This document shows, piece after piece, positions 2,058 through 59,129 of a stretch of 64,000 nt of DNA. The number at the start of each line of letters is the position of its first letter. Position 1 is the first letter of the stretch. The stretch comes from Eledone cirrhosa (lineage: Eukaryota). Both the position numbers and the translations under genes were made by a program. The notes beneath the pieces are model-generated. The model was given only the letters and a program-made list of their open reading frames with translations, ran no database searches and was not told the origin of the DNA. The stretch spans positions 89,094,001 through 89,158,000 of the forward strand of contig OZ024741.1 of NCBI GenBank assembly GCA_964016885.1, written 5' to 3'.

Positions 2058-3005
2058 TGTTATACTTGGGGAGGGTCATATTTGTGTAATAATATTGCCA
2101 GAATTAATAACAGAACACACTCACTGTTTGATTGGTTTTCGCTTCTGTGTCTTTTATATCGGTTAATTTAATTTATTCGGTCCTCAATGTTACCATTGAC
2201 TAACCAACGTTCAAAAATACAGATACAATATAGACACAAACACATATATATAGTCTATCAAAGTTCTTTCGTTGCACATCTGCAACATCGTCAGTGGTGC
2301 TATTATGTTTCCTCCCGTTGCATTGTATGGCTACGCCATCTTTATTTAGTCTGTTTATTTATTTATTTATTTGTTTATTTTTTTGTCTTCTCTGCGCATG
2401 CGTTTGCGTGTGTGTATAGTGTTTTGTTTGATGTGTGTTCTTGTTTGGGTGATTGTGTATTGGTTAATGTATTCTATCTTAGTTTACTAGTGTGTGTTTA
2501 TATGTGTTTGTTGTTATTGTCCTTGTGTATGTATTTATTTATTTATTTATTTAATTATTTATACTTCTCTTAGGTGTTGTTATTCCATTCATTTTTTCTC
2601 TTTAGCCTTGGCCTTCTAAGTTCTATTTCGCTGGCCTCTCTGATTTGCCTATCTGCTGGGTCATTTCTATGTTTAGATATTATTCTAACTTCTATGTTGT
2701 CTATGTTACCGTTGTGTTGTTGTCTGGCATGTTCGTATAGTACTGAACCGTTTTTTCGTCCTTTTAGTTCCCCCCAGTGTTGGTCTATGCTTTCACCTAT
2801 GTTACGAGCTGTCTCGCCTATGTATGTTGTTGTCATGTTTCTGCAAGTACCCTCTGTATTCTTATGCTATAGACTACGTTTCTAGTTTTACAGTTTATCC
2901 GGGGGTTTACTTTACATATGATACATTTCCTATTAGTACAGTGGGTTTTCTTAAAGAGGTAGGTTTTGCTAATCAGGGATTTTATGGTGGTTCCTGGCTT
3001 TTCTA

Positions 3006-3009
<4 letters not shown>
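2056..3009 (-). mobile_element. Penelope-like retroelement 3' fragment (Cys-rich linker, GIY-YIG endonuclease, pLTR)
   Basis: Minus strand reads MVEKPGTTIKSLISK..HCTNRKCIICK..NCKTRNVVY, then after a frameshift TYIGETARN..EH..RQIREASEI..RPRL (ORF 2570-2836), followed by an HHR-bearing terminal region. Confidence 0.9.
2258..2297 (-). ncRNA. Hammerhead ribozyme motif (family A)
   Basis: CTGACGA-t-gttgca(gatg)tgcaac-GAAA-gaac-TT; intact core and 6-bp stem II, short stem I. Confidence 0.7.
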
Positions 3010-3075
<66 letters not shown>

Positions 3076-4584: not shown

Positions 4585-4642
<58 letters not shown>

Positions 4643-4815
4643 ATCACACTGAAAACACCAGTTCTCGTCCGATCACCGAAGTTAAGAAACCTCAAGCCTA
4701 GTTAGTACTTAGATGGGTGACCGCTTGGGAAACCTAGGTGCTCTAAACATTTCCTTTCAAGCGTGGTGCTCCAGCATGGCCTCAGCCGGATGGCTGGCAC
4801 AGGTAAAAGAATAAA
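4579..4815 (+). mobile_element. 5S rRNA-derived SINE-like copy (5S head interrupted by a TA/GT microsatellite, plus SINE tail)
   Basis: GTTGACGGACATA...TCACACTGAAAACACCAGTTCTCGTCCGATCACCGAAGTTAAG..GTTAGTACTTAGATGGGTGACCGCTTGGGAA..GGTGCT resembles invertebrate 5S rRNA; tail CCAGCATGGCCTCAGCCGGATGGCTG..GGTAAAAGA recurs at 56573-56620. Confidence 0.8.
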
Positions 4816-5073: not shown

Positions 5074-5197
5074 ACCACAAACCCTCCTTCTCAATTCTAC
5101 TTTTGAAAAGCATAAGAACTGTGAAACCGGTAAAGGAAACAAATAAATATTCTTAAAAAGACTCCAGTTGCATTTTCGATTTCATCTTTTTTCCTTA
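5074..5197 (+). mobile_element. HHR-bearing PLE-like terminal fragment (family B, U3-A8 core at 5100-5135)
   Basis: Homologous to 47215-47350; CTT-TTGAAAA-gcat..ctgt-GAAA-ccgg-TA-AAG. Confidence 0.7.
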
Positions 5198-5834
5198 TAT
5201 ATATAATTGGAAAATAGTAAAATCGAATCTCTGGCGGTTTGCAAGTAAATTCGGCCTACTTATATGAAATGATGAGTTAGCAAAGCACTCGATAAGTTGG
5301 GGCCTTAGAGTAATAACATACGTTTAAATAGCTTGACAAATCGAACATTGTGGTAGGCGAATCTAACACACAATATATACCAAAGTAACGATAGAACTAA
5401 TCAGGTTGAGAAAAATACACCTGGACAAATCAAACGATCAATCGTTTAAAGTGTTTCTTTGAATCCGAAATCAAATATCAGACTTACGTGACTGGCAAGC
5501 TCGTGGTATTCATGATCGACGGAGGATTCAGTTTTTCAACAGGTTTTTCGTTCTACCAAGGACCGAAGTGATAAGCTATATGTTGCTGCTATATATGCTG
5601 CGTACCGTATCTATAGCTGTCACGTGTTAATTCCGGCAAGGGAAATAACCCCGGTTTTTGGCGGGTCATTCAAACTGTTTTGGCGGGTCATTCAAAGAAA
5701 TATTTTAATTTCCGCTAATCATCATGATAAGCTCTCAACTATATATCATCATTCATTCTCATCTCGGGAACAATTTTGAATAGCGCCAGTTCGTAATTTG
5801 AACTCGAGAATTTTATATTCTCCGAGTGAAAAGA

Positions 5835-5918
5835 ACCTTCTGACGAGAGTTTATCTTTTCAATGGAAGACCGCAAGGACTGATTTATTTTTGATACTCGA
5901 AACCAATTCGGTAAAGGT
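5835..5918 (+). ncRNA. Hammerhead ribozyme, type I (family C)
   Basis: ACCTT-CTGACGA-GAGT...ACTC-GAAA-ccaattcgg-TA-AAGGT; stem I 5 bp, stem II base 4 bp. Confidence 0.85.
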
Positions 5919-6317
5919 AACCATAGTGAGTACGGTGAATTTTTTGAAATTTATTTTGAAACTTTTTCTTATTTGCTAAACCTTGATTAGATATGTTCTG
6001 GCTCGTTAATTTATTAACCTGCCATTGAACCACATTGGCATATGGTTGGACAATACATGTGTCCCTGAATGCTTTTTGCGTGTTGGGATATATACTTTAT
6101 TATTATTAATCTCCTCTTGGTTGAGAAAAAATTTTGTCATTTTGACTGCTGCTATTTATAGTGGTAGTAGACTGACCTCCCTGCCTCTGCTTCTATCTTT
6201 ACACACGGCACTGGACAGAATTGCTTCCACATCATTCATTCTCATCTCAGGAACAATTTTGAATAGCGCCAGTTCGTAATTTGAACTCGGGAATTTTATA
6301 TTCTCCGAGTGAAAAGA

Positions 6318-6404
6318 ACCTTCTGACGAGAGTTTATCTTTTCAATGGAAGGCCGCAAGGACTGTCCATTTATTTTTGAGACTCGAAACCGATTCGGTAA
6401 AGGT
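6318..6404 (+). ncRNA. Hammerhead ribozyme, type I (family C)
   Basis: ACCTT-CTGACGA-GAGT...ACTC-GAAA-CCG(att)CGG-TA-AAGGT; all core nucleotides and three stems present. Confidence 0.9.
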
Positions 6405-6593
6405 AACCATAGTGAGTACAGTGAATTTTTTGAAATTTATTTTGAAACATTTTCTTATTTGCTAAACCTTGATTATATATATATATATATCATTTTTTAA
6501 AATTAATCTCTGTACCCCCTCCTAAGGGGGTTGATGTATCGAACGTCTTCGCATTTGGTAAGAAACTGGTATTATACCAAATTTCTTCACCTG

Positions 6594-14939: not shown

Positions 14940-15316
<377 letters not shown>

Positions 15317-23012: not shown

Positions 23013-23370
23013 TATAATAAATAAGAGAGATGGTTTTATACGTACATCCTCATTTTATTATCTAATTCCATGATACGTATTTCAAAGGTTCAAGGGTGGT
23101 TATATAATAACCCCCTAGCATGTTTTCTTCAGATGGATTGAGAGCTGTTTTCCTATACATTGATATGTTTCTGGTTTAACGCGGACAGCGATGTTAACAC
23201 CACGTTAAACCAGAAACATATCAATGTATAGGAAAACAGCTCTCAATCCATCTGAAGAAAACATGCTAGGGGTTTAATATATAACCTCACTTGCACCTTT
23301 GAAATACGTATAATGGAATTAGTTAATAAAATGAGGATGTACGTATAAAACCGTCTCTCTTATTTTATAT
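23013..23370. mobile_element. Fold-back element (family F) with two oppositely oriented HHRs (23067-23137 minus; 23247-23317 plus)
   Basis: About 170-bp inverted arms; TCCAT-CTGAAGA..GAAA-tacgta-TA-ATGGA with palindromic stem III. Confidence 0.85.
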
Positions 23371-54586: not shown

Positions 54587-54709
54587 TATATATATATACA
54601 ATATATTAACAAATGGAAACTATATTTATAAAACCATATTTATTTCATTATACATATTTCAAGGACACCAAGTCAAATTATGGTGCGCTTTCATCAGATA
54701 AAATATAAT

Positions 54710-54888
54710 TGTTTCTACTTCTGGCACAAGGCCAGCAATTATCCCAGTGTATTACTGGTACTTTATTTTGTCGACCCCTTAAGGATGAAAGGCAAAGTTA
54801 ACCTCGACGGGTTTTGAACTCAGTCCGTAAAGGGACGTAACTGTGCTGCAAAGCATGGCGTCCGACCCTCTACTGATACTGCCAATCC
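54710..54888 (-). mobile_element. SINE inserted in the left pLTR arm only
   Basis: 10-bp TSD AAAATATAAT; empty site in the right arm at about 58935-58945. Confidence 0.9.
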
Positions 54889-57800
54889 AAAATATAATAT
54901 AGATCAGTTTTATAAATAAATATTGGCATACCCTTAAAGAATGCGACCATTTCTGTTGGAAGCTCCCGGATAGTGGTGTTATTAAATTTATTTAGTCTAT
55001 TATGCAAATTAGTGTCGGATATGTTTAAATAACAGTAGATTTAAAATAGGCCGTTGGACTATGGAAAAGAAAAAAGGAAAATAGTAAGAAAAAGAGAAAA
55101 GAAAGAGCAAACTCTAAGAGGAAAATAAGAAAACAAAAGAAAGAGAAAGAGAAAGAGAAAGAGAAAAAAGAAAGAGAAAGAGAAAGAGAAAGAGAAAGAG
55201 AAAGCCCTAAGTGATAGGTTGTTGTATTAACGTAAATTTTAAGATAAAGCGAAAAAATAAATATTTATTGGATGAGTTAGGCAGAGTAAATAAGCGTGAA
55301 TAGAAAATAAATAAATAATAATAACTGTGAATTAAATAAGAAAAGAAAAGAAATTATACAATTTTTTAATTACCTTAATCTAAAAGTAGAAATAGAGAAT
55401 AACCATAAAATAGTTAATTTTCTAGATGAAACCTTAAACCTTAACACATGTCTTCATTATCTATTTCACAAACTAAACGAGAACTTAAACTACGTTAATT
55501 TTAACTCTAATCACCCCAGATCCGTTAAAAATAATATAGTGAATTCTGTACAGCAACGCATTTCTAGAATTTCAGCTAATATTTGATGATAAAGCACATT
55601 ATTACAACGAAGCGTTAGGTAGAGCTGGATATAGAAATAAAATTAAATACATTGATAAGAATAAGAATATAACAACTAACCATAATCTTAACAATTTTAA
55701 CAACTATAATAGAAAACCTTACAATATTTCGGAAAACAAAAAAAGAAATAGAACTAGGAATATATTATGGTTCGCTCCTCTTTTCTCATTAAATATTAAA
55801 ACTCCTATTGCTAAACTATTCTTTAAAGCTCTTGACAAATGCTTCCCTAGAACACATAGATATTACTCAATATTTAATAGACATACTATAAAATTAAATA
55901 ATTCAACCACCAATAATTTAGCGCAGAATATTAATAGAATTAATAATAGAAACTTAAAACCTAACCAAAATACCACTAACAACCCCAGCAATATCCAATT
56001 TAATAATACAGCTCAATTTAATAATACATCTAGTAACTTGAATTTTGATAAATGTAACTGTAGAAATAAATCTAACTGTCCGTTAAATAACAATTGTTTA
56101 GCTAAAAATATAGTATATAATTGTAATGTAAAAACTAATTTAAATTCATTTAATTATGTAGGATCTACTTCCACAGATTTTAAATCTCGTTTTAATAACC
56201 ATAAATGCTCTTTTACGAATTTAAACAAAAAATCTTCAACTTCTCTATCTAGCTTATTATGGGACCTTAAATCAAAGAACATTAAATATTCTTTACTTTG
56301 GAATATTATTTCAAAAGCTCTTCCGAAAATTGTGATCTTTGTATAGAGGAAATATTCTTTATATTAAAAAACAAAAATTCCGTGAACGTAAGAAACAATC
56401 TTTTCAGTTGCTGCAAATATAGATTGAATTCAACGTTTAAATATAAATTTAAAATGTAATATATAACTCATTCTATTAAATCTATTGAACCTATCGATAA
56501 ATCATTAGATTCCTTCATTTGACTGCTTAAAACTCTCCTTAAAAGTTTTTTCCTTGAAAATGTTTCTAGATCCCAGCATGACCTCAGCCGGATGGCTGAA
56601 ACAGGTAAAAGAGTAAAAGAGAGATAAACATACTAAAAGCTTTTAAATGAAAGAGATTTTTGGAAAATATTTTTTTTGAAAGTTTCTCCTATTTTTGAAA
56701 ACTTCTCTTTTTTGAAAATTTCTCTTTCTTTGAAAATTTCTCGTATGGTTATAAAAGATTAAGTTAAGCATACTGAGAGTTAAATATTATATAAAAAAAA
56801 TTAAAATTCCTTTTTATACTGAATTTTTTATATATATTCTTGTATATTTTTTAAAATTATATCTTAAAATATTTTTAAAAATTATATTGTTTTAAAGTTA
56901 TATTGCTTAAAATGATATGAATATATTTCCAAATTGTAATTTCTCTTAAAATTATAATCCTTTTAAAATTATAACTCATTTTTATTTTATATTATGTACT
57001 TTATATTTAACTATATATATATATGATGTATGTCTATCTATATGTGTATATATATGTGTATGCATCTATATATGGGTTGTGTATCTCTGTGTATATATAT
57101 GTGTGGGTACATGTGTCTATGTCTCTATATATGTATATATACAATTCGAATACACTTTGTTATAAAGGGTTTCTTACGGTTTATGCTAAACAAACTTATA
57201 TTATAACAGTCATAACTATATAACAGGTGGATTTCTGAGATATATAAAATTTATAAAATTTATAAAATTTATAAAATTATAACTTACTATTAAATAATAT
57301 AAGGTTTTTATAATCTTAACTTTCTTTTATCATCTTAACATTTATAACATTTAATATAAGTAAATAACTTAATTTCCTTCACGCTGTATTGCTATTACAT
57401 AGAAACGATTTTTCTCCGATTTCTCCGAAAAATCTATGAATTTCCATAAGTTTAAAAAAATTCCTATATCTTAAACATAAAAAATCTTTTATTGTATATA
57501 TATGTATATATATGTATGTATATACCCATCAATTAAATTAATTTTATATTCTTTTCATAGATGTATATTTTTTTCACTAACTTTCTTATCTTAAAACTTT
57601 GGTCACCTTAGATATTTGTATTGGCATTACTATTTTATAACAGCAACTGCTTGTATACCTTTTACTGACCACCTGACCTAGTTTCACCCCTAAAATAAGC
57701 TTCAATTACTACTATTTTACCATTTGGCCAATTATTAACTTTCTATTGGTTAATTCTAAACCTCTTACCAAACAGACAGAATATATTAGATCTTTGTTGG

Positions 57801-58248
57801 TTTTATTCAATGAACAAATAAAATTATTTCTGAGGTCAGCATAAGACCTATTTCTTCCCTAAAATAATCCTTCATTCATAATATTCTTTTCCATCCAAAA
57901 CTGAAATCTACCTTCCTCTACCCATAATTTAAGGTTCTTCTACTACTATATTACTATCTTGACCCTCACTATCTCCTGATTGGTCAATTCAAAACCTGTT
58001 CCCAAACAGACCTATTGTATTGAATCTTTGTTTTTTCAATAAACGAATATCATTATTTCTGAAGACAGCATATATATGTGTAGGCATGTATATTCCCTCT
58101 GATAGTTTGTATAAATATTGTACATAGATCTATAGAATATGCATACCAACTCTAACACATATATATCCTAGAAACGATCGTAAAATGATGAATTTTTTTT
58201 AATATAAGGAACTGTTTCTTTGTTTATTCATTATTTTATTAATTTATG

Positions 58249-58307
<59 letters not shown>

Positions 58308-58938
58308 ATATGTATATATATATGAATATATTCCTTTTAATAATATATAGATTTTTTAATAATATATAGTTTTTAATAATATATAGATTTTAATAATATA
58401 TAGATCTCAATTTTAATGTATAGATCTCAATAATTTAATTGATAATTTAATTGATAAACTAAACATTTAATCAAATTTAAACATTAGATAAAATTCTCCG
58501 GTTATTATTATTTATTTATTTTCTATTCATGCTTATTTACTTTGCCTAACTCATCCAATAAATATTTACGTTAATACAACAAATTTACGTTAATACAACA
58601 ACCTATCACTTCGGGCTTTCTTTTTCTCTTTCTCTTTCTCTTTCTCTTTCTCTTTCTCTTTCTTTTTTCTCTTTCTCTTTCTCTTTCTCTTTCTTTTGTT
58701 TTCTTCTTTTCCTCTTAGAGTTTGCTCTTTCTTTTCTCTTTTTCTTACTATTTTCCTTTTTTCTTTTCCATACTCCAACGGCCTATTTTAAATCTACTGT
58801 TATTTAAACATATCCGACACTAATTTGCATAATAGACTAAATAAATTTAATAACCCCACTATCCGGGAGCTTCCAACAGAAATGGTCGCATTCTTTAAGG
58901 GTATGTCAATATTTATTTATAAAACTGATCTATATTAT

Positions 58939-59001
58939 ATTTTATCTGATGAAAGCGCACCATAATTTGACTTGGTGTCCTTGAAATATGTATAATGAAA
59001 T
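58939..59001 (+). ncRNA. Hammerhead ribozyme, type I (family J); mirror copy 54642-54704 (-)
   Basis: ATTTTAT-CTGATGA-aag.gcacca..tggtgt.ctt-GAAA-tatgta-TA-ATGAAAT. Confidence 0.85.
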
Positions 59002-59129
59002 AAATATGGTTTTATAAATATAGTTTCCATTTGTTAATATATCGTATTTTTACTCCAATAATTTGTTGAGTGCTTTATATCAGTTATAAAAATATTTGCT
59101 TGTTGTATCACAACAATTTATATATAACT

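What the first reader, a model, noticed from the sequence alone, without database searches (positions are those of the whole stretch)
5747..6475. Two-ribozyme tandem unit that could release a 486-nt (circular) RNA
Seen: about 245-bp direct repeats, each with a complete HHR core; predicted cleavage after 5913 and 6399, 486 nt apart; stem II carries a long insertion; TA runs flank the unit. Established: retrozymes yield monomeric and circular RNAs by tandem HHR cleavage. Inference: a retrozyme-like unit or a tandem PLE pLTR. The spacer translates weakly like a decayed GIY-YIG C-terminus, which could be a transitional state from PLE to retrozyme.
Basis: partly seen in the sequence, partly recalled or inferred. 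Interest (0 to 1): 0.75.

Follow-up and report, generated by a model that had tools for sequence, protein, structure and literature searches.

The report
Penelope-mobilised long-stem hammerhead retrozyme

Summary
Observation confirmed: two 96%-identical repeats, each with a full type I hammerhead core; predicted cuts after 5913 and 6399, 486 nt apart; TA runs on both sides. The unit is one copy of a dispersed non-coding family (696 exact core matches; 3,465 long-stem hammerhead motifs of this and other families). At least four subfamilies keep 483-488-nt monomers with compensatory stem changes. Among 79 sampled insertions none continues into a coding element; 3' ends fall at two fixed sites (+81, about +190), and 27 of 30 inverted insertions join one short to one long end, the Penelope 'tail' rule, also seen in a coding Penelope-like element here. 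Copying crosses the cut site in exact register at 117 of 124 junctions, and units within one insertion are more alike than between insertions, which fits a circular template without proving it. The GIY-YIG remnant is not supported (-0.1 bits; shuffles up to 6.7). The upstream ribozyme of this copy is damaged, so this locus is a weak source. Cleavage, circles and the partner enzyme are untested. The scan had already noted similar retrozymes in this and other genomes. Verdict: new variant of non-LTR retrozymes; interest 0.45.

The parts
5740..5746 (.). Short (TA) run at the 5' junction, remnant of the TA target
   Evidence: Sequence; 40 of 49 non-inverted insertions have a TA/GA-type 5' flank
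5747..5913 (+). 5'-truncated partial unit (monomer positions about 317-486)
5835..5918 (+). Upstream type I hammerhead, long stem II (52 nt), predicted cut after 5913; degraded (3-nt deletion, three substitutions against the downstream copy)
5914..6399 (+). One full 486-nt non-coding monomer, cut site to cut site; folds better than shuffles (z -3.0 linear, -4.7 circular)
   Evidence: family search
5986..5994 (+). Short-end site (+81): internal TA-like stretch (majority GATTATATATG) where most insertions end; inferred priming site
5995..6033 (+). Conserved hairpin GUUCUGG...CCAUUGAAC directly 3' of the short-end site; candidate recognition element (inferred)
   Evidence: 4,366 genomic matches, control 2; kept in all subfamilies
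6094..6108 (+). Long-end site (+181 to +195), AU-rich linker after a covarying hairpin; inferred second priming site
6318..6404 (+). Downstream type I hammerhead, family-typical, stem II 55 nt, predicted cut after 6399
6400..6480 (+). 3' stub of the next unit (+1 to +81), the family's short end
6474..6490 (.). (TA)n target run, overlapping the element's own TA-like end
   Evidence: 43 of 49 non-inverted insertions have a TA 3' flank

Best explanation
The unit is one dispersed, partly decayed copy of a non-coding hammerhead repeat family with 483-488-nt monomers, likely a non-LTR retrozyme that is predicted to self-cleave and is likely copied into (TA)n runs by a Penelope-like reverse transcriptase/endonuclease, probably from a circular RNA. 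Model: a locus with two good ribozymes is transcribed; the ribozymes cut out a monomer (predicted); a host ligase closes it (inferred from other retrozymes); the borrowed enzyme nicks a TA run and primes inside the RNA at an AU-rich site 81 or about 190 nt past the cut site (ends shown, priming inferred), reads back across the sealed cut site and stops at random, giving 'partial unit + whole units + fixed stub'. When both sides of the break are used, one arm starts at +81 and the other at +190, giving head-to-head insertions. This locus is a 1.5-unit product primed at +81; its upstream ribozyme has since decayed, so it is more likely a spent daughter than a source.
For: Family: 696 exact 22-nt cores, control 0; 3,465 long-stem-II motifs, control 7, which include unrelated families. 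Monomers of subfamilies A, A2, B, C measure 483-488 nt in 19 of 20 tandem intervals and align end to end (A vs B 307 of 517 columns, score 184 vs shuffle maximum 12.5). Stems I, II, III stay paired while their letters change; 17 of 56 consensus pairs have a two-sided change; six natural monomers fold as circles with z -3.2 to -7.5 against 20 shuffles each. Insertion anatomy, 79 insertions from the first 100 of 696 motif places: non-inverted 3' ends 37 short, 8 long, 4 other of 49; inverted 27 short+long, 0 short+short, 0 long+long, 3 unresolved of 30; 5' ends spread along the unit; 117 of 124 junctions in exact register; units in one insertion differ at 45 per kb against 82-86 per kb between insertions, and share rare variants at 1.61 vs 0.081 per kb (same direction) and 0.50 vs 0.11 (opposite). 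A coding Penelope-like element in the same genome targets TA and follows the same rule with ends at +149 and +207, one of each in 10 of 10 resolved inverted pairs. Partial tandems, 5' inversions, an optional tail and TA targets are described PLE traits (PMC8557442, passages; PMC3846280, passages).
Against: No cleavage, transcript or circle was observed. The hammerhead fold is not favoured in a 120-nt context even for the better copy (probability about 0.0005), though it is the minimum fold of a 99-nt piece. In the Xenopus preprint only 1 of 9 predicted retrozyme dimers cleaved in vitro (10.64898/2026.07.22.740005). Only 11 of 79 insertions keep two pattern-perfect cores in tandem. No partner enzyme was identified: the coding element tested shares no sequence with the monomer and has a 58-nt, not a 110-nt, tail. 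Exact junctions and shared variants also fit an uncut linear multimer from a homogeneous array. One inverted insertion of the first, biased set (L012) appears to have two short ends.
Confidence: 0.75

Rival explanations
1. Same non-autonomous, PLE-mobilised family, but the template is a linear, uncut or partly cut multimer transcribed from a tandem array; the ribozyme only trims ends and no circle is needed.
For: Arrays of 3-4 units exist (L015, L110, L111, L130). Exact junctions and within-insertion likeness follow if the source array is homogeneous. Up to 17 of 109 arms have 5' ends in the bin that holds the cut site, against 4-12 in other 40-nt bins (that bin also collects ends too short to align). 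Slow or dimer-dependent cleavage is known for animal type I hammerheads (PMC4209133).
Against: Rare variants private to one or two loci are shared by units of the same insertion in 7 loci, which needs many different homogeneous source arrays. Monomer length is held at 483-488 nt and all three ribozyme stems covary across subfamilies, so cleavage seems to matter, yet copying passes the cut site without a scar in 117 of 124 junctions.
Confidence: 0.17
2. The copies are truncated 3' ends (pseudo-LTRs) of a coding Penelope-like element, and the spacer is a decayed GIY-YIG C-terminus.
For: Insertion anatomy is that of PLEs. One insertion (L072/L081) is fused at monomer position 470 to a 5'-truncated coding PLE.
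Against: 0 of 79 insertions continue 5' into coding sequence within the 1.5-2 kb fetched. Endonuclease profile: unit -0.1 bits, other monomers -3.2 to 1.6, 200 shuffles median -2.3 and maximum 6.7, true remnants 8.4-133. No Pfam family above cut-off in six frames. In L081 the PLE lies 3' of the repeat, has its own different minimal hammerhead, and the join has a 3-nt microhomology that a deletion would also give.
Confidence: 0.04
3. A satellite-like or DNA-level repeat spread by unequal crossover or duplication, with the hammerhead an inert passenger.
For: A few loci are segmental duplicates (L010/L011, L140, L114). The preprint proposes local tandem amplification for retrozymes.
Against: Copies are dispersed over many contigs, with fixed 3' ends, ragged 5' ends, inversions and TA targets, and the ribozyme stems covary.
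Confidence: 0.04

Closest known systems
Metazoan non-LTR retrozymes (Cervera and de la Pena 2020, PMC7229834, parts 2-4 of 6 read; Li, Clavereau and Pollet 2026, 10.64898/2026.07.22.740005, parts 1-3 of 5 read)
   Same: Non-coding tandem-prone monomer with a type I hammerhead per unit, GC under 50% (0.34-0.40), no LTR/PBS/PPT seen, structured RNA, co-existing PLEs, size inside the preprint's 51-972 bp range.
   Different: Stem II is 49-55 nt with an internal loop rather than the 4-bp canonical or 7-8-bp PLE helix; monomer larger than the 150-450 bp of the 2020 paper; copies are mostly dispersed 1-2.5-mers in (TA)n with PLE-style inversions and two fixed ends 110 nt apart; no target duplication can be read; no pLTR homology to a coding PLE was found, unlike 21 of 57 Xenopus families; expression untested.
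Endonuclease-positive Penelope-like elements (PMC8557442 passages and supplement part 24; PMC3846280 passages; PMC4209133 parts 1-2 of 4)
   Same: 5' truncation, partial tandems, head-to-head inversion, tail on one end only, TA targeting, hammerhead upstream of the 3' end.
   Different: No RT or GIY-YIG coding sequence; tail about 110 nt against the 30-40 bp described; ribozyme has a real stem III and a long stem II instead of the minimal form.
'HHR_half_core' Naiad elements (PMC8557442 Methods passage and supplement table)
   Same: The two halves of the core lie 35-50 nt apart in eight Naiads, a spacing close to this stem II.
   Different: The Naiad_Ovul and Naiad_Obim 3' ends, read by eye in the supplement, do not resemble this monomer; here all three stems can be drawn and covary.

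Membership tests
Non-LTR retrozyme | Type I hammerhead with complete core in each repeat unit | tested here: met
   core complete in both units of this locus, upstream stems damaged
Non-LTR retrozyme | Short non-coding monomer in tandem copies, GC below 50% | tested here: met
   483-488 nt, up to 4 tandem cuts; GC 0.34-0.40; no coding signal
Non-LTR retrozyme | Interspersed, multi-copy, signs of retrotransposition | tested here: met
Non-LTR retrozyme | Self-cleavage of the transcript | not testable with these tools
   Only folding and covariation
Non-LTR retrozyme | Monomeric linear and circular RNA in vivo | not testable with these tools
   No run on record as RNA was available; genomic footprint fits but does not prove a circle
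Non-LTR retrozyme | Long target-site duplication when present | tested here: inconclusive
   TA runs on both sides hide any duplication
Non-LTR retrozyme | Sequence relation to the pLTR of an autonomous PLE (preprint's model) | tested here: inconclusive
   No homology to the one coding family tested in depth, none among 11 loci of other long-stem ribozymes or 30 hairpin-motif loci; the genome's PLE set was not searched fully
Autonomous EN+ Penelope-like element | ORF with telomerase-like RT and GIY-YIG endonuclease | tested here: not met
Autonomous EN+ Penelope-like element | Partial tandem, 5' inversion, one-sided tail, TA target | tested here: met
   27 of 30 inverted insertions short+long; same rule in a coding PLE, 10 of 10
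Plant LTR retrozyme | Type III hammerhead in two LTRs with PBS, PPT and 4-bp duplication | tested here: not met
   Type I topology; the 'repeats' are a partial tandem with ragged 5' ends, not LTRs; PBS and PPT were not searched for

The most novel reading that the evidence does not exclude
A lineage of about 485-nt RNA circles with a hitherto uncatalogued long-stem-II hammerhead has been handed down through at least four subfamilies as a structured parasite of Penelope enzymes, and its insertions record rolling-circle twin priming: two enzymes start at two fixed AU-rich sites 110 nt apart on one circle. That would explain the long-unexplained Penelope 'tail' and head-to-head inversion, and make tail length a fingerprint that pairs each retrozyme with its enzyme.
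Probability: 0.4. Interest if true: 0.72.

Novelty: new variant of a known kind. Interest (0 to 1): 0.45.

Why it matters
Retrozyme mobilisation by PLEs through a circular RNA has been proposed (PMC4209133, PMC7229834, the 2026 preprint) but in the parts read it is not shown from insertion anatomy. This family supplies a 486-nt, protein-free substrate with two mapped ends and a conserved hairpin beside one of them, so the PLE copying step, the origin of the tail and the need for a circle can be tested directly. The ribozyme itself escapes Rfam and short-stem descriptors, so thousands of such motifs per genome may be uncounted. The locus itself is an ordinary, ageing copy, and retrozymes as a class are known.

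Tried and rejected
GIY-YIG remnant: Pfam on six frames gave four sub-threshold, unrelated matches in one frame; tblastn with the window's own PLE endonuclease best E 0.48; profile of 150 PLE endonucleases at shuffle level, and 1 tblastn hit at E 0.015 from 150 queries, in family B only. The profile is centred on one clade and sees other clades weakly (8-16 bits), so a very old remnant of another clade is not strictly excluded. RNA evidence: no RNA holder listed; the four listed runs were laid as contigs and showed only presence of the family in two coded organisms; depth differences were not used. Partner search: the Neptune/Nematis-like coding family (label from my recall of the linker motif plus PMC8557442; Pfam gave only a weak RVT_1 match) shares target and end rule but no sequence; its presence beside L062 and L072 was rejected as evidence because its fragments lie in many flanks. 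Naiad_Ovul rejected by eye. Other long-stem ribozyme families (L095-L105) show no homology to the monomer and no linked ORF; the ORF in L102 has its own minimal ribozyme. A Hydra-like family has ends about 105-110 nt apart but no coding sequence was seen directly upstream and no shared motif: lead only. Fold-back copying of one arm from the other: 12 of 27 inverted insertions have neither arm contained in the other, which favours two independent primings, but deletions at the centre of a palindrome would give the same picture, so this is weak. The MAFFT alignment of ribozymes misplaced a gap in the core; anchored pairing was tabulated instead without a shuffle control. Empty-site search among fetched loci found nothing. 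No promoter test was made. Rows dropped: duplicate views of one insertion (L018; 10 loci; L053, L058, L061, L067, L075), BLAST pieces under 76% identity or 23 nt; L015 supplies 19 of the 41 same-direction shared variants.

Full report
Observation. The region holds two direct repeats, 5747-5994 and 6230-6480, 96% identical. Each has a type I hammerhead core: CUGACGA at 5840 and 6323, GAAA, a short stem III, a GUA triplet ending at 5913 and 6399, and stem I ACCUU/AAGGU. The predicted cuts are 486 nt apart. TA runs lie at 5740-5746 and 6474-6490. Rfam finds no hammerhead here, at gathering score or at E up to 10. The upstream ribozyme differs from the downstream one by a 3-nt deletion in stem II and three substitutions; forcing the hammerhead fold costs 10.9 kcal/mol for it and 3.5 for the downstream one.

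The family. The window lies in a 3.0-Gb genome; an animal host is inferred from the repeat content and was not tested. The monomer gave 2,570 first-look candidates, of which 40 were scored, with full-length copies at 95-97% identity on many contigs. A 22-nt core occurs 696 times exactly, control 0. A looser pattern for long-stem-II hammerheads gives 3,465 matches, control 7; the first 100 listed include this lineage and unrelated families. Subfamilies A, A2, B and C have cut-to-cut distances of 483-488 nt in 19 of 20 intervals, the other being a 335-nt deletion form. A and B align end to end at 307 of 517 columns (score 184, shuffles at most 12.5). Stem I, the base of stem II and stem III stay paired while changing letters, for example stem II GAGUU/GACUC, GAAUC/GAUUC, GCC/GGC, GCUUU/AAAGC, and stem II always folds as a basal helix, an internal loop and a second helix (no shuffle control). 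In a ten-monomer alignment 17 of 56 predicted pairs have a two-sided change. Six natural monomers folded as circles score z -3.2 to -7.5 against 20 shuffles each. So the long stem II is a conserved family trait, and selection appears to act on RNA structure.

No protein remnant. Six-frame Pfam scans gave nothing above cut-off. A profile built from 150 PLE endonuclease domains scored the unit at -0.1 bits and four other monomer stretches at -3.2 to 1.6; 200 shuffles reached 6.7; four real PLE remnants scored 8.4, 16.5, 97.7 and 133. The profile is weak for distant clades, but nothing supports the 'transitional' reading.

Insertion anatomy. I took the first 100 of 696 core matches, all on contig C1, which collapse to 79 insertions. 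Forty-nine are not inverted: 37 end at about +81, 8 at +181 to +195, 4 elsewhere; 43 have a TA 3' flank and 40 a TA/GA-type 5' flank. Thirty are head-to-head inversions: 27 pair one short with one long end, none pairs two alike, 3 are unresolved. The 5' ends are spread along the unit. Arms cross the cut site 0, 1, 2 or 3 times (12, 71, 25, 1 of 109 arms), and 117 of 124 junctions are in exact register. Both ends fall at TA-like linkers inside the monomer, just 3' of predicted hairpins; the hairpin that starts at +82 occurs 4,366 times, control 2, and all 30 loci fetched for it belong to this lineage. Subfamilies A2, B and C end at the equivalent places. None of the 79 insertions runs 5' into coding sequence within the DNA fetched. 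Units of one insertion differ at about 45 per kb, against 82-86 per kb between insertions, and share rare variants 20-fold (same direction) and 4-fold (opposite direction, 3 sites only) above control; the first, length-biased set of 29 loci gave the same trend.

Link to Penelope-like elements. Partial tandems, an inverted 5' copy, a tail on one end and TA targets are described PLE traits (PMC8557442, passages; PMC3846280, passages). A coding PLE family in this genome (RT with YVDD, cysteine linker, GIY-YIG) ends at +149 or +207 past its own minimal hammerhead and has one of each in 10 of 10 resolved inverted pairs. It is not shown to be the partner: no shared sequence, a 58-nt tail, and fragments in many flanks. 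One direct fusion (L081) could be a template switch or a deletion. An earlier scan note (e1-8665316) reports another retrozyme here with ends 59 nt apart, which led me to look for a PLE with a 110-nt tail; a Hydra-like family fits in length only.

Mechanism. Shown: family, non-coding state, covarying stems, fixed internal 3' ends, short+long rule, exact junctions, within-insertion likeness. Inferred: self-cleavage, circularisation by a host ligase (shown for mussel and axolotl retrozymes in PMC7229834), PLE-driven priming at TA nicks, and a circular template. The argument for a circle is that a cut linear monomer would give insertions ending at the cut site, whereas these end 81 or 190 nt beyond it and pass it without a scar, while the ribozyme is kept under selection. 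An uncut homogeneous multimer explains the same data less economically and is not excluded. Twelve of 27 inversions have neither arm inside the other, which fits two primings better than the self-priming model proposed in PMC3846280, but central deletions could mimic this. Against activity: only 1 of 9 predicted dimers cleaved in the Xenopus preprint, the hammerhead is a minor fold in my calculations, and only 11 of 79 insertions keep two perfect cores in tandem. I put the chance that this very locus yields a 486-nt RNA at about 0.3.

Comparison and novelty. It works like, and meets the testable criteria of, metazoan non-LTR retrozymes (PMC7229834; 10.64898/2026.07.22.740005), whose PLE dependence is already proposed. 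It is not an autonomous PLE. Differences are the 49-55-nt stem II, the 110-nt tail and the dispersed, two-ended insertion pattern. Seven library searches listed no paper describing such a family, a stem II of this length in a retrozyme, or twin priming in PLEs; 'long helix II' in PMC13725137 means 6 bp (passages), and PMC8557442 notes half-cores 35-50 nt apart in eight Naiads. The library lacks most subscription papers and repeat databases were not available, so the family may be catalogued. The scan itself noted similar retrozymes with the same reading in this and other genomes; I saw those notes, and they are not independent support. The look-up by sequence found nothing.

Verdict. Real feature; new variant of a known kind; interest 0.45. 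The boldest reading, twin priming on a circle as the origin of the Penelope tail, has probability about 0.4 and would merit about 0.72.

Noticed in passing
window 54640-59080: Hydra-like Penelope element with inverted minimal hammerheads (-54697, +58946), a broken RT/endonuclease ORF at 55543-56346, a short end near +48 and a long end near +135. Clade label is my recall.
   Followed up: partly
window 23132-23252: Second inverted pair of minimal hammerheads of another family, one short and one long end.
   Followed up: no
window 4631-4749: 5S rRNA match (63.8 bits) after a microsatellite, probably the head of a 5S-derived SINE or a pseudogene.
   Followed up: no
window 15032-15281 (-) and 2575-3017 (-): 3' end with minimal hammerhead, and an endonuclease remnant, of the Neptune/Nematis-like coding PLE families.
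   Followed up: partly
L002:1987-2469: A family A copy sits directly in front of a family B copy, joined at B's own short-end TA site, giving a chimeric 483-nt cut-to-cut interval.
   Followed up: partly
L081:1374-3537: Retrozyme fused at position 470 to a 20-nt inverted PLE piece and a 5'-truncated coding PLE; template switch or deletion.
   Followed up: partly
L095-L105: At least four other hammerhead families with 39-60-nt stem II, unrelated to the monomer by BLAST, seen as short truncated or inverted pieces.
   Followed up: partly
L169-L193: Young Hydra-like family (about 97% identical copies) with minimal hammerhead, long AT-rich non-coding upstream region and ends about 105-110 nt apart.
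   Followed up: partly
window 5914-5985: ACCUU at +67 to +71 repeats the 5' strand of stem I and pairs with AAGGU in the circular fold, a possible switch that keeps the circle from recutting; seen in subfamily A only, untested.
   Followed up: no
window 5191-5741: The left flank is another high-copy repeat, cut short at 5741 by this insertion; other copies continue with different sequence (loose ends).
   Followed up: partly
L103:1897-5401: Long 86-bp tandem satellite beside a long-stem hammerhead.
   Followed up: no
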